A stretch of DNA of 51,249 bases from Promethearchaeota archaeon Loki_b31 (GCA_005222975.1 NJBI01000021.1:1-51249), one strand, 5' to 3'; positions 46,516 through 49,817 are shown, counted from the stretch's first letter. Program-made: numbers and translations. Notes: a model not told the origin generated them from the letters alone.

Positions 46516-47658
46516 ATGGATAAAGTAGGAATAGTTGGATGCACACAAACTAAATACGAAGCAGATAAAATCGATCAAACTTACTCCGAACTTGTTTTTG
46601 AAGTTGTAAAAAAGCTTCACAACGAATTAGGGATTACTAACGACGATATAGGGTGTGTAATTACTAGTTCCAACGATTTTAACGATGGAAGAACGATCGC
46701 AAACATGGCTATACAAGATGCTGTAGGGTCTGTTAGAAAAGCTGAATCTAGAGTCTCTGGAGATGGTGCTTTCGCCTATATTTACGGAGCAATGAGAATT
46801 TTATCAGAGTCATTCGATACAGTACTGGTAGTTTCACATTGTAAATGCTCTGAAGTTAACCAATATTTAGTAAACAATACTATTTTTGATCCTTATTATC
46901 AAAGACATTTAGGTTTAGATCAAATTTCATCAGCAGGTTTAATGGCTAACATGTATATGAATAAATATGGTGTAACTGAAGACCAAGCAGCTAAAGTTGT
47001 AGTTAAAAATCGAAAAAACGCTCTCAATAATCCTTATGCGCATTTACAGAAAGAAATTACAATTGGCGATGTTCTTAATTCAAAGATAATGGCACATCCT
47101 TTAAAAGAATTAGATTTCCCTCCTTTCTCAGATGGTGCAGTGGCTATGCTATTAGCAAAAGAAGATATAGCTAAAAAGATGACAGATACGCCCGTTTGGC
47201 TTAAGGGTTATGGAAGTTGTACTGACGCTTATTATTTAGGACATAGGAACATGACGGATTTGGTAGGTTTAGAATTAGCCGCTAAACAAGCTTATAAAAT
47301 GGCGAGTATTACTGATCCTATTAAAGAAATAGATGTTTGTGAAGTAAGCGAAAACTTCAGTACTCACGAATTGATGATTTACGAAGCACTAGGGTTATGC
47401 GCTCCTGGAGAAGGTGGTAAATTTATAGAGGGAGGGGAAACAGAGATGAATGGTTCTATTCCAGTAAATCCCTCTGGAGGAGTGTTATCAAGTAATCCCA
47501 TAATGGCAAATGGTTTAATTAGAGTAGCTGAAATTGCGTTACAATTAAAGGGTAAGGCAGATAAAAGACAAGTTCCTAACGCAAAAACTGGTTTAGCTTA
47601 TGGCATGAACGGGATATGTTCTCAGGGAAACTGTGTATTAATATTTGGAGGTGAATGA
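46516..47658 (+). CDS. Thiolase-fold protein, Ltp4-like
   Basis: ELGITNDDIG...DFNDGR...ESRVSGDGA resembles actinobacterial Ltp4 (from memory); VKNRKNA, DGAVA, VNPSGG. Confidence 0.85.
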   Translation: MDKVGIVGCTQTKYEADKIDQTYSELVFEVVKKLHNELGITNDDIGCVITSSNDFNDGRTIANMAIQDAVGSVRKAESRVSGDGAFAYIYGAMRILSESFDTVLVVSHCKCSEVNQYLVNNTIFDPYYQRHLGLDQISSAGLMANMYMNKYGVTEDQAAKVVVKNRKNALNNPYAHLQKEITIGDVLNSKIMAHPLKELDFPPFSDGAVAMLLAKEDIAKKMTDTPVWLKGYGSCTDAYYLGHRNMTDLVGLELAAKQAYKMASITDPIKEIDVCEVSENFSTHELMIYEALGLCAPGEGGKFIEGGETEMNGSIPVNPSGGVLSSNPIMANGLIRVAEIALQLKGKADKRQVPNAKTGLAYGMNGICSQGNCVLIFGGE

Positions 47659-47660
47659 AA

Positions 47661-48857
47661 ATGTCAAAGCACGATGTGGCCGTTGTCGGTATAGGTCAAA
47701 CTAAATTCAGAAGTAAGAGAAGAGATGTTAATATCCCTGAGATGGTATACGAAGCCGTTAAAATGGCTCTTGATGATGCTCAACTTGAACCTAAAGACAT
47801 TGATGCCATCATTATAGGTAATATTTAATTTCATCTCGAGATTAAATACTAAATGGACCATTTTGAAGGAATTAATTTCTCTGAATTATTCTGTGGAATT
47901 GAAGGAGCTCCTGGATATTTAAAACCTGTAGTTAAGGTTGCAACAGGTGGCACAACGGGTAGTTCCTTAGCTATATGTGGTTATCACAATGTTGCCTCAG
48001 GAATTTATAACAAGGTTTTAGTTGTTGGTTGGGAAAAATTAAAAGAAGGTGGAGCTACTACCGGTATAATAACAGCATTTGATCCGGTATGGGAAAGACC
48101 ATCTTTAGCTGGTGCTCTCGGTCCACTAGCCCTTATGGCAGGTATGTATTCTGCCAAATATGGAATAACAGCAGAACAAGCAGCAAAAGTTACGGTAAAA
48201 AATAGAAGTAATGCGGCAAATAATCCATTTGCACATTTACAGATGCCAAATATTACCATTGATTACGTTATGAGTTCTCAAATGATATCGTACCCTTTAA
48301 GACTACACGATGTTTGCCCTCAAAGCGAAGGCGCTTGTGCTCTCATTTACGCTAACGAGGAAGAAACTAAAAAGATAACCGATAACCCCGCTTGGTTCCA
48401 CGCGGTAGAAACTACCCACTATTACACTTTTGGTACTGATGAAGCAATGTTCGATCTCCCTACTGCTACACTTGCGTCTAAGAAAGCTTATAAAAAAGCA
48501 GGCATTAAAAATCCTGTAAAAGATTTAGATGTAGCAGAAATCTATGAACCGACATCTTGGAGCGAACTTTCATGGACCGAAGCGTTAGGGTTTTGCAAAC
48601 CTGGTGAAGGCGGAAAATTATTAGACGAAGGAATAACATTAATGAGTGGAGAGTTTCCTGTCAACCCCTCAGGGGGCGTCTTAAGCACAAATCCTATTGG
48701 AGCTACAGCATTAGTGCGATTAGCTGAAGCAGCAATTCAAGTTATGGGGCGAGGTGAAAAAAGACAAGTCCCCGATGTAGAAAAAGCTCTCGCAATGGGA
48801 TTTGGCGGAAGTCTTTGGACTGAAATTCTAATATTAGGAAGAGAACCTTTGAGGTGA
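47661..48857 (+). CDS. Thiolase-fold protein, Ltp3-like; two exons (47661-47822, 47853-48857), 388 aa when joined
   Basis: SD GGAGGTGA 47647-47654; exon 1 MSKHDVAVVGIGQTKF...DIDAIIIGN is a thiolase N-terminus in the same frame as MDHFEG... Confidence 0.85.
47823..47852 (+). other. Putative 30-nt bulge-helix-bulge (tRNA-type) mRNA intron
   Basis: Two in-frame TAA; central helix GGUA/UACU, 3-nt bulges AUA and AAA, 9-bp inner stem; canonical cuts give GGT AAT|ATG GAC. Confidence 0.75.
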
Positions 48858-48861
48858 TAAT

Positions 48862-49350
48862 ATGAGTAAAAAAAAAGGTCAAGAAAAAGTTTTTGAAATT
48901 AAATGGAAGACTAACTTACCGTATAGATATTCAATTGGCAAACTTGCAGTTAAATTTTTCGAGGAACTCAAGGAAAATAAAAAGATAATGGGAAGTAAAT
49001 GCTCAAAATGTGGTAAGGTAAATTTTCCACCAAGAGCAGTTTGTGCCGATTGCATGGTTGAAATGACTATCGACGATATGGTTGAATTATCCCCTAAAGG
49101 TACTTTGGCGGGTTTCACGGTAGTTAATTATCCTTTCACTGATCCTAACACTGGGGGCATGCGACCCTTTCCATATGGTTATGCACTATTTAAATTGGAT
49201 GGCGCTGATACTTATACAATGCACTTTATTAACGAAACAGATCACACCAAGATGAAAGTTGGGCAACGCGTTGAGGCCGTTTTTAAAGAAGAAAGAGAAG
49301 GTAATATAGGAGATATTAAATATTATAAGGTTATTAAAGAGGAGAAATAA
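48862..49350 (+). CDS. DUF35 Zn-ribbon/OB-fold protein
   Basis: GSKCSKCGKVNFPPRAVCADC, GQRVEAVF. Confidence 0.92.
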   Translation: MSKKKGQEKVFEIKWKTNLPYRYSIGKLAVKFFEELKENKKIMGSKCSKCGKVNFPPRAVCADCMVEMTIDDMVELSPKGTLAGFTVVNYPFTDPNTGGMRPFPYGYALFKLDGADTYTMHFINETDHTKMKVGQRVEAVFKEEREGNIGDIKYYKVIKEEK

Positions 49351-49367
49351 ATTTGGAGGGATAAAAA

Positions 49368-49817
49368 ATGAGCCAAGAAATTGAGAAAAAAGTATTTAGA
49401 GGTAGAATTAAAGTTCCTTATAAGCACACTGCTGGAGCCTATGTTGAAAAATTTATTACCGAAATTGGAAAAAACAATAAGATTTTCGGTGTAAAATGCC
49501 CAAAGTGCAAAAAAGTTTACGTTCCTCCCAAAATGATTTGTTTCGAATGTTTCGAAAAAATGGAAGAATGGATCGAAGTCGGAAACCAAGGAACCGTTAA
49601 AGGATTTACTGTTATCACACACTCAACACCAGTGTTGCCCTTAGAGCCACCTTTTGCTTATGGAATCATCACGCTCGATGGTGCAGATACAGATTTTGTG
49701 CACATAATAAAAGAAAGCGATCCAAAAAAACTGAAAATAGGTATGAGAGTCGAAGCTGTGTTTAAAGAGGTGCCACGAAAAAGAATATTGGATATAGAAT
49801 ATTTTAATCCAATATAA
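49368..49817 (+). CDS. DUF35 Zn-ribbon/OB-fold protein
   Basis: GVKCPKCKKVYVPPKMICFEC, LDGADT, GMRVEAVF. Confidence 0.92.
   Translation: MSQEIEKKVFRGRIKVPYKHTAGAYVEKFITEIGKNNKIFGVKCPKCKKVYVPPKMICFECFEKMEEWIEVGNQGTVKGFTVITHSTPVLPLEPPFAYGIITLDGADTDFVHIIKESDPKKLKIGMRVEAVFKEVPRKRILDIEYFNPI

What the first reader, a model, noticed from the sequence alone, without database searches (positions are those of the whole stretch)
47811..47860. Probable bulge-helix-bulge intron inside an Asgard protein-coding (Ltp3-like thiolase) gene
Seen: the thiolase N-terminus (ATG 47661, strong SD) and the 334-aa ORF at 47853 are in the same frame, separated by exactly 30 nt holding two TAA stops. The RNA folds as a 4-bp central helix G47817-A47820 (GGUA) with U47847-U47850 (UACU), a 3-nt bulge AUA (47821-23), a 9-bp inner stem (47824-32/47838-46, one G-U) with 5-nt loop, and a 3-nt bulge AAA (47851-53); the outer helix is only short and weak. 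Known: archaeal splicing endonuclease EndA cuts after the 2nd nt of each bulge. Applied here, that removes precisely 47823-47852 and joins GGT AAT|ATG GAC = IIIGN-MDHFEG, matching the Ltp3-type segment VVGKAPDFFEG as I recall it. mRNA BHB introns are established mainly for crenarchaeal cbf5. Inference: EndA/RtcB-type splicing of a metabolic mRNA in an Asgard archaeon, possibly a wider class of hidden introns and a splicing-based expression switch conceptually like HAC1/XBP1.
Basis: partly seen in the sequence, partly recalled or inferred. Interest (0 to 1): 0.95.

Follow-up and report, generated by a model that had tools for sequence, protein, structure and literature searches.

The report
tRNA-type mini-intron in Asgard thiolase gene
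A 30-base hairpin carrying stop codons splits an otherwise intact thiolase-family gene of a Loki-type Asgard archaeon, and comparison with relatives indicates it is cut out of the messenger RNA by the tRNA-splicing enzymes, which the papers I could search report for only one archaeal protein gene (cbf5).

Summary
A thiolase-fold gene (47661-48857, +) is broken by exactly 30 nt (47823-47852) holding two in-frame TAA codons.

- **Site:** all uninterrupted orthologues read IIGN|MDHFEG with nothing in between, which is the product of the predicted cuts.
- **Spread:** the same 30-nt insert sits at the same site in 11 of 57 orthologue-bearing genomes of the order (7 of 8 genera), and in 23 further contigs.
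- **Structure:** across 22 distinct copies, a 4-bp exon-intron helix, a 3-nt bulge and a 9-bp inner stem stay about 98% paired. Five pairs show compensatory changes, and RNAalifold finds the same fold unaided.
- **Exon constraint:** alleles with the insert use only GGY for Gly53 (20 of 20), while alleles without it mostly use GGR (17 of 20).
- **Selection:** both exons are under purifying selection (dN/dS 0.12 and 0.08).
- **Enzymes:** the genome encodes two EndA paralogues and RtcB.

The best reading (about 0.8) is an HBh'-type bulge-helix-bulge pre-mRNA intron.

No RNA read covered the junction, so splicing itself is inferred. The HAC1/XBP1-like "switch" idea is untested. My own genome scan found a second clear case, a 31-nt insert in an ABC ATPase gene.

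This scan had already noted such mini-introns on other DNA of this genome, and this same intron in another genome.

The parts
47647..47654 (+). Shine-Dalgarno sequence (GGAGGTGA) of the interrupted gene
   Evidence: Read directly; it lies 6 nt before ATG 47661.
47661..47822 (+). Exon 1: 54 codons, the N-terminus of the thiolase fold, ending ...IIGN
   Evidence: It matches Pfam Thiolase_N positions 1-52. It is conserved and open in all intron-bearing alleles, with dN/dS 0.12.
47792..47819 (+). Short tract directly 5' of the intron with 6 substitutions against the otherwise 98-100% identical genome G017; a probable recombination tract
47815..47816 (+). Weak outer helix h, 5' strand; it pairs with 47854-47855
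   Evidence: U-G is kept in 22 of 22 copies and A-U in 12 of 22. The third base of Ile52 is A in 11 of 20 intron-bearing alleles against 1 of 20 intron-less alleles.
47817..47820 (+). Central helix H, 5' strand (exon: the Gly53 codon plus the first base of Asn54); it pairs with 47847-47850
   Evidence: 97.7% of cells are paired. The third pair runs U-A, U-G, C-G with no mismatch. GGY is used in 20 of 20 intron-bearing alleles.
47821..47823 (+). 5' bulge (AUA); the predicted cut is after 47822
   Evidence: The cut position is set by the intron-less junction.
47823..47852 (+). The 30-nt intron, phase 0, with in-frame TAA at 47826 and 47850
   Evidence: The insert is 30 nt in every allele seen.
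47824..47846 (+). Inner helix h' (47824-32 with 47838-46, 9 bp) and its 5-nt loop (47833-37)
   Evidence: 97.5% of cells are paired and 4 pairs show compensatory change. The helix is present in the minimum-energy fold of nearly all copies.
47847..47850 (+). Central helix H, 3' strand (intron)
47851..47853 (+). 3' bulge (AAA); the predicted cut is after 47852, and the third base is the A of ATG
   Evidence: A, A or G, then A is conserved across the 22 copies.
47853..48857 (+). Exon 2: 334 codons plus the stop, the rest of the thiolase fold
   Evidence: Pfam Thiolase_C_1; dN/dS 0.08.
46516..47658 (+). Upstream paralogous thiolase-fold gene of the same operon (context)
   Evidence: The gene order is the same with and without the intron.
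48862..49817 (+). Two DUF35 / ChsH2-type OB-fold and zinc-ribbon genes (48862-49350 and 49368-49817) (context)

Best explanation
The 30 nt at 47823-47852 are a bulge-helix-bulge intron of the relaxed HBh' class inside a protein-coding mRNA.

**The fold.** In the transcript, the last exon bases GGUA pair with intron bases UACU to form the 4-bp central helix. A 9-bp intron hairpin stacks on one side of it. One 3-nt stretch on each strand (AUA and AAA) stays unpaired.

**The reaction.** The heteromeric (alpha-beta)2-type splicing endonuclease EndA cuts after the second base of each bulge. RtcB then joins the exons and closes the intron into a circle. The mRNA now reads ...GGU AAU|AUG GAC... and encodes the full 388-aa thiolase-fold protein.

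**What is shown:**
- the anatomy of the insert;
- the exact fit of the predicted cuts to the intron-less alleles;
- covariation of both helices;
- constraint on exon synonymous sites;
- purifying selection on both exons;
- presence of the enzymes in the genome.

**What is inferred:**
- that cleavage and ligation actually occur;
- that unspliced mRNA yields only a 57-aa peptide;
- that the patchy distribution reflects exchange of intron-bearing segments by homologous recombination, together with losses.
For: 1. All uninterrupted orthologues, including one 97% identical, have IIGN directly followed by MDHFEG. The ten read-through residues are an insertion relative to all of them.
2. The insert recurs at the same site and is always 30 nt. 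It is in 4 of 27 orthologue-bearing genomes of the genus, in 11 of 57 in the order across 7 of 8 genera, and in 23 more metagenome or genome contigs.
3. Across 22 distinct copies the central helix is 97.7% paired and the inner stem 97.5% paired. Five pairs have compensatory changes, and 0 of 500 shuffles reach the covariation score. RNAalifold predicts exactly H, a 3-nt bulge and h' on its own.
4. The exon is constrained by the intron. Gly53 is GGY in 20 of 20 intron-bearing alleles and GGR in 17 of 20 intron-less alleles. GGC is always matched by G in the intron.
5. Among 110 divergent intron-bearing pairs, dN/dS is 0.12 for exon 1 and 0.08 for exon 2, and no allele is otherwise broken.
6. 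The genome has two roughly 200-aa EndA paralogues. One is closest to the Aeropyrum pernix catalytic subunit (E 3e-34). It also has RtcB. Asgard EndA is described as (alpha-beta)2 with the L1 loop that gives broad substrate range (PMC5829648).
7. The same geometry restores the frame in a 31-nt, frame-shifting insert in an ABC ATPase gene of this genome, where exon 2 starts inside a conserved motif without a start codon at its first codon.
Against: - No RNA evidence. None of the four RNA or RNA-like runs laid had a contig over 47714-47906.
- The outer helix is only 1-2 bp, so the 3' cut site is not a bulge closed on both sides.
- In single-sequence folding the full central helix appears in only 7 of 22 copies. 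A competing 11-bp extension of the hairpin is more stable: mean minimum free energy -12.5 against -7.4 kcal/mol for the BHB fold.
- Two related copies have an A-G mismatch in the central helix.
- Exon 2 begins with a native ATG, so independent translation cannot be excluded for this gene alone.
Confidence: 0.8

Rival explanations
1. Split gene. The insert is a stop-restart cassette. Ribosomes end at the first stop in the insert and start again at ATG 47853, so the enzyme is built from a 57-aa piece and a 334-aa piece held together without a covalent link.
For: - Exon 2 starts with ATG, and in most copies a stop codon abuts it.
- Both pieces are under purifying selection, which this model also predicts.
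- Public gene callers already list 334-336-aa proteins that start at MDHFEG.
Against: - There is no Shine-Dalgarno-like motif in the 3' half of the insert, whereas the true start has GGAGGTGA.
- The stop next to the ATG is not conserved: it is CAA in L069.
- The model explains neither the covarying exon-intron helix, nor the fixed 3-nt unpaired stretches, nor the GGY constraint.
- The ABC ATPase insert of the same genome shifts the frame, and its exon 2 begins inside the Walker B/D-loop without a start codon at its first codon.
Confidence: 0.08
2. Dead or dying gene. A small palindromic insertion (a footprint or miniature element) has inactivated the gene, and the structure is only that of a hairpin-forming insertion.
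For: The insert is a near-perfect palindrome and carries stop codons. Its distribution is patchy.
Against: - Intron-bearing alleles from 7 genera keep both exons open, with dN/dS about 0.1.
- The length never changes from 30 nt.
- Compensatory changes keep the helices, and the exon codon co-varies with the insert.
- There is no other copy of the element in this genome or elsewhere in 42 genomes of the genus.
Confidence: 0.04
3. Translational bypassing. The ribosome hops over the 30 nt, as in phage T4 gene 60.
For: A stop follows soon after the take-off region, and a hairpin is present.
Against: - No matched take-off and landing codons give the right frame. The only AAU near the 3' end (47852-54) would land out of frame, and G057 has none.
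- This model does not explain the exon-intron covariation.
Confidence: 0.02
4. Assembly or sequencing artefact.
For: None found.
Against: The insert is present, with sequence variation, in independent assemblies from many studies.
Confidence: 0.01

Closest known systems
BHB intron in the cbf5 pre-mRNA of Desulfurococcales and Sulfolobales (Yokobori et al. 2009, PMC2738675, and the earlier work cited there)
   Same: - It is a short intron inside a protein-coding sequence.
- It has a relaxed bulge-helix-bulge motif.
- The hosts have a hetero-oligomeric splicing endonuclease.
- Presence and absence are lineage-specific.
   Different: - The host phylum is different (Asgard/Promethearchaeota).
- The gene is different (a metabolic thiolase-fold gene rather than an RNA-modification enzyme).
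- The size is invariant at 30 nt, with a 9-bp stem.
- The distribution is far more mosaic: at least 8 changes on the gene tree, with short recombination tracts at the site.
- It is one of several such introns in the same genome.
- Splicing is not yet shown by RNA data here.
Non-canonical (HBh') tRNA introns of Thermoproteota and Asgard archaea (PMC5829648; preprint 10.64898/2026.10.13.758758)
   Same: The motif class and size range are the same, and the same enzymes are presumed (EndA (alpha-beta)2 with the L1 loop, and RtcB). [quoted passage not shown]
   Different: The substrate is an mRNA, so the exon half of the motif is also a codon under protein constraint. No tRNA scaffold helps recognition.
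HAC1/XBP1 unconventional mRNA splicing in eukaryotes
   Same: A short intron is removed from a cytoplasmic mRNA by a protein endonuclease, and in animals the exons are rejoined by RtcB.
   Different: The endonuclease is different (IRE1, which recognises two stem-loops, not EndA and a BHB). Regulation by stress is established there and is entirely untested here. No homology of the introns is implied.
Translational bypass in phage T4 gene 60
   Same: A short untranslated gap with a stop and a hairpin lies inside a coding sequence.
   Different: It needs matched take-off and landing codons, which are absent here. It acts on the ribosome, not on the RNA.

Membership tests
Archaeal bulge-helix-bulge (EndA-type) intron | A 4-bp central helix formed between the exon and the 3' part of the intron | tested here: met
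   47817-20 pairs with 47847-50. The helix is 97.7% paired over 22 copies, with the series U-A, U-G, C-G at one pair. Two related copies have one A-G mismatch.
Archaeal bulge-helix-bulge (EndA-type) intron | Two 3-nt bulges on opposite strands, each 3' of its central-helix strand | tested here: met
   The 5' bulge 47821-23 is closed on both sides. The 3' stretch 47851-53 is unpaired and conserved as A-R-A.
Archaeal bulge-helix-bulge (EndA-type) intron | At least one flanking helix (h or h') of 2 or more bp (classes hBHBh', hBH, HBh') | tested here: met
   The inner helix h' has 9 bp, is 97.5% paired, and has 4 compensatory pairs. The outer helix h has only 1-2 bp (U-G in 22 of 22, A-U in 12 of 22), so the class is HBh'.
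Archaeal bulge-helix-bulge (EndA-type) intron | Cuts after the second bulge base on each strand give a functional joined product | tested here: met
   The predicted join GGU AAU|AUG GAC equals the sequence of all intron-less orthologues.
Archaeal bulge-helix-bulge (EndA-type) intron | The host encodes a splicing endonuclease able to cut relaxed motifs, and an RNA ligase | tested here: met
   Two EndA paralogues (C13, C79) and RtcB (C84) are present. The broad specificity of Asgard (alpha-beta)2 EndA comes from PMC5829648 and was not assayed here.
Archaeal bulge-helix-bulge (EndA-type) intron | The intron is excised in vivo (spliced RNA, circular intron) | tested here: inconclusive
   In four runs laid, no contig covers 47714-47906.
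Group I / group II intron or intein | A ribozyme core of hundreds of nt, or an in-frame protein-splicing domain | tested here: not met
   The insert is only 30 nt, has stops in frame, and gives no Rfam match.
Miniature transposable element (MITE-like) | Many dispersed copies in the genome | tested here: not met
   BLAST finds no second copy in G000. The covariance model finds only the thiolase site, once per genome, in 42 genomes. The best weak hit inspected lies antisense inside an intact ORF.
Programmed translational bypass (gene 60 type) | Matching take-off and landing codons that restore the frame | tested here: not met
   no in-frame matching codon pair exists.

The most novel reading that the evidence does not exclude
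This intron would be one member of a genome-wide set of roughly 30-nt tRNA-type mini-introns in ordinary protein-coding mRNAs of Loki-type Asgard archaea. They would be spliced by EndA and RtcB, kept in place because the exon itself forms half of the recognition motif, and passed between species and genera by recombination of short intron-bearing segments. That would be a protein-enzyme-based mRNA splicing system in the closest archaeal relatives of eukaryotes, and it would offer the cell a possible point of control over enzyme expression.
Probability: 0.55. Interest if true: 0.9.

Novelty: new variant of a known kind. Interest (0 to 1): 0.8.

Why it matters
- **How rare this is.** In the papers I could search, EndA-type splicing inside an archaeal coding sequence is described for a single gene, cbf5 of some Crenarchaeota (PMC2738675). 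Nothing comparable is reported for Asgard archaea.
- **What would change.** If these inserts are spliced, Asgard archaea routinely cut and rejoin ordinary mRNAs with the tRNA-splicing machinery. That bears on how mRNA splicing and RtcB-dependent unconventional splicing arose in the lineage leading to eukaryotes.
- **Annotation.** Gene callers now report intron-bearing alleles as truncated 334-336-aa proteins. Metabolic reconstructions of Asgard genomes may therefore score working genes as broken.
- **An evolutionary signal.** The exon-intron covariation seen here is a clean natural example of an RNA-processing signal constraining synonymous codon choice.

Tried and rejected
The DNA behind the 334-aa database proteins was reached instead with a degenerate DNA pattern.
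- **RNA test.** One search for runs and one lay of four RNA or RNA-like runs gave no contig over the junction. Nothing can be said about splicing or expression from this. Two of the 'RNA' runs are probably DNA.
- **Rfam.** No family matches 47600-48000.
- **Mobile-repeat idea.** BLAST of the insert against the genome and a covariance model over 42 genomes found no further copies. The weak hits (E 0.2-1) are chance level. Eight of them gave no interrupted frame under my BHB and ORF criteria, and the one inspected by ORF listing lies antisense in an intact permease gene.
- **Homing-endonuclease neighbour.** The gene order is identical with and without the intron. The odd neighbours in L060 and L077 are an AIG2-like protein and an unassigned protein, not nucleases.
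- **My genome-wide BHB plus ORF-merge scan is noisy.** It gave 2316 candidates with 5 or more inner pairs, and 85 after stricter filters. By junction motif only the thiolase and the ABC ATPase were convincing. It is too strict to recover cases with mismatches, so it is not a census.
- **Bypassing and assembly artefact** were considered and rejected (see rivals).
- **Not tested:** whether the encoded protein lacks the nucleophilic cysteine. It looks so by eye.

Full report

- A thiolase-fold gene starts at ATG 47661 behind a GGAGGTGA Shine-Dalgarno sequence and runs open to 47822 (...IIGN).
- Thirty bases follow (47823-47852), with in-frame TAA at 47826 and 47850.
- ATG 47853 then opens a 334-aa frame in the same phase.
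- Pfam places exon 1 at positions 1-52 of Thiolase_N and exon 2 on Thiolase_C_1.
- The gene sits in an operon-like row: paralogous thiolase, this gene, then two DUF35/ChsH2-type genes.
- The stated base pairs all exist. The outer helix has only two pairs.

**Is it an insertion, and where exactly?** A database search with the read-through translation found hundreds of orthologues of 388-390 aa. The best is 97% identical once aligned.

- All of them read IIGN directly followed by MDHFEG. The ten read-through residues align to a gap in every one.
- Removing 47823-47852 therefore gives the orthologous protein exactly.
- In this genome the boundary can slide by up to two bases, because AT is repeated at both ends. 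In relatives it cannot.
- Seven database clusters of 334-336 aa begin exactly at MDHFEG. This was the first hint that other genomes carry the same break.

**Recurrence.**

- In the window's genus, 27 of 42 species genomes hold the orthologue. Four (G000, G048, G057, G016) have a 30-nt insert at the same codon boundary.
- A degenerate pattern demands a purine before the ATG of exon 2, which excludes intron-less alleles. It found 13 metagenome contigs and 10 species genomes, all labelled Promethearchaeota or uncultured archaeon, and all with a 30-nt insert at this site.
- A census not biased by that pattern covered 154 genomes of the order. The orthologue is in 57 of them, all in one family, and 11 are interrupted. 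Every insert is 30 nt, and they lie in 7 of the 8 genera that have the gene.
- An assembly artefact is excluded.

**Structure.**

- Twenty-two distinct copies align without gaps.
- Five pairs show changes on both sides. The covariation score is 0.219 against 0.144 ± 0.011 in shuffles, reached by 0 of 500 shuffles. Sliding the partners by 1-3 columns drops pairing to 30-43%.
- RNAalifold, given only the alignment, returns the same central helix, 3-nt bulge, 9-bp stem and 5-nt loop.
- The outer helix is weak: U-G in 22 of 22 copies and A-U in 12 of 22.
- By the scheme used in the Asgard tRNA-intron preprint (10.64898/2026.10.13.758758) this is class HBh'.

**The exon is constrained by the intron.** The third base of the Gly53 codon is the third pair of the central helix.

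- Intron-bearing alleles use GGT (17) or GGC (3) and never GGR. Intron-less alleles use GGG or GGA in 17 of 20.
- Every GGC allele has G at the paired intron position, and no C-A combination occurs.
- The third base of Ile52 would extend the outer helix. It is A in 11 of 20 intron-bearing alleles and in 1 of 20 intron-less alleles.
- Presence and absence of the intron are interleaved on the gene tree, so shared descent is unlikely to explain this association by itself. It is what one expects if the RNA fold is used.

**The gene is alive.**

- Every intron-bearing allele that is complete on its contig keeps an open, conserved exon 1 and a full exon 2.
- Among 110 divergent intron-bearing pairs, dN/dS is 0.12 for exon 1 and 0.08 for exon 2.
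- A pseudogene is thus excluded, and so is a model in which only the 334-aa frame matters.

**Enzymes.**

- The genome has two EndA homologues of 200 and 201 aa on different contigs.
- One is closest to the catalytic subunit of the Aeropyrum pernix heterotetramer (3P1Z_B, E 3e-34). The other is a more divergent paralogue.
- RtcB is present.
- This fits published work that Asgard archaea have (alpha-beta)2 EndA with the L1 loop linked to broad substrate range (PMC5829648), and that most Asgard genomes hold two paralogues.
- ARAGORN finds only 23 tRNA genes in this 92%-complete genome, and 12 of them are called with an intron. This is in line with heavily interrupted tRNA genes.

**Distribution and history.**

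- On a maximum-likelihood tree of 40 alleles, the intron needs at least 8 gains or losses, 6 of them forced by well-supported branches. The sampling of intron-bearing alleles was biased by the pattern search, but the interleaving is real.
- G000 and the intron-less G017 are 98-100% identical over 3 kb. The exception is six substitutions within 47792-47819, directly 5' of the intron. There G000 resembles other intron-bearing alleles.
- A distant genome (L071) is 75-85% identical elsewhere but 100% identical to G000 over 47837-48106, and it shares its intron.
- I read these as short recombination tracts that carry the intron in or out. Which way the exchange went is inferred, not shown.
- No nuclease-like gene lies next to the intron-bearing alleles examined, and the gene order does not differ.
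- The element has no other copy in G000. A covariance model finds it only at this site in 42 genomes.

**A wider class.**

- My own scan of the genome looked for BHB geometry that merges two open frames. It is noisy.
- It recovered this intron and one further clear case: a 31-nt insert at G000:C98:16601-16631 in an ABC ATPase gene.
- Excision by the same rule restores ...LDEPT|TGVD..., the Walker B/D-loop. Exon 1 matches Pfam ABC_tran positions 1-136 of 137.
- The four closest relatives have an uninterrupted 355-aa gene. Five other genomes of the genus carry the same insert, with variation in the stem.
- That insert shifts the frame, and exon 2 begins inside the conserved motif rather than at a start codon. 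Only removal at the RNA level appears to make sense of it.
- Thiolase paralogues of relatives carry further roughly 30-nt inserts at other sites.
- Earlier agents of this scan reported about a dozen such inserts in this genome and this same intron in another genome. I used these as leads only. One of them claims RNA support for a different intron, which I could not check.

**What is missing.**

- No RNA evidence. Of 24 runs listed, I laid four RNA or RNA-like ones, and none has a contig across 47714-47906.
- For single sequences, the full central helix is in the minimum-energy fold in only 7 of 22 copies. An 11-bp extension of the hairpin competes with it.
- Exon 2 of this particular gene begins with a native ATG. 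A two-piece protein therefore cannot be ruled out from this locus alone.

**Comparison with what is known.**

- The closest precedent is the cbf5 pre-mRNA intron of Desulfurococcales and Sulfolobales. It is a short intron with a relaxed motif, its hosts have a hetero-oligomeric endonuclease, and it shows lineage-specific loss (PMC2738675).
- This case differs in phylum, in gene, in its invariant 30-nt form, in its mosaic distribution with recombination tracts, and in being one of several in one genome.
- Five literature searches found no report of BHB introns in Asgard protein-coding genes. Absence from this library is not proof that none exists.

**Verdict.** It is most likely (about 0.8) a spliced HBh'-type mini-intron. 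The regulatory 'switch' idea remains speculation.

Noticed in passing
G000:C98:16601-16631 (own genome, another contig; locus L099 702-732): A 31-nt BHB-shaped, frame-shifting insert splits an ABC ATPase gene between Walker B and the D-loop. Excision restores ...LDEPT|TGVD.... The four closest relatives have an uninterrupted 355-aa gene, and five other genomes of the genus carry the same insert.
   Followed up: yes
L084 (G023:C208), L081-L083 (G005:C71, G021:C39, G017:C11), L085 (G007:C52), L086 (G017:C45): Other thiolase paralogues of relatives carry roughly 30-nt inserts with stops at different sites.
- L084 is a clean HBh' case: 9-bp stem, 30 nt.
- L081-83 look like an hBH type with a 5-bp outer helix (worked out by eye).
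- L085 has 3 of 4 central pairs (worked out by eye).
- L086 has two inserts, the first of 29 nt.

   Followed up: partly
L075, oriented coordinates 362-904 and 935-1510 (upstream paralogous thiolase): In this intron-bearing locus the upstream paralogue is also split into two ORFs about 30 nt apart. This may be a further mini-intron.
   Followed up: no
window 47792-47819, and 47837-48106 compared with L071: Two short tracts have a different ancestry from their surroundings. One holds six substitutions against the otherwise near-identical G017. The other is a stretch 100% identical to a distant genome. Both suggest recombination around the intron.
   Followed up: partly
whole genome G000: ARAGORN calls only 23 tRNA genes in a 92%-complete genome, 12 of them with introns, some of which are doubtful calls. 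Many tRNA genes are probably too interrupted to be found.
   Followed up: no
proteins P0076-P0081 and P0083 (public databases): Public gene calls of 334-336 aa begin exactly at MDHFEG and some are named acetyl-CoA C-acetyltransferase. These are most probably intron-bearing alleles miscalled as truncated genes, but their DNA was not fetched.
   Followed up: partly
window 47853-48857 (residues around VATGGTTGSS): By eye, the position where paralogues have the nucleophilic cysteine (YCASG) is not a cysteine here. The protein may be a non-thiolytic member of the fold that works with the DUF35 partners. This was not tested.
   Followed up: no
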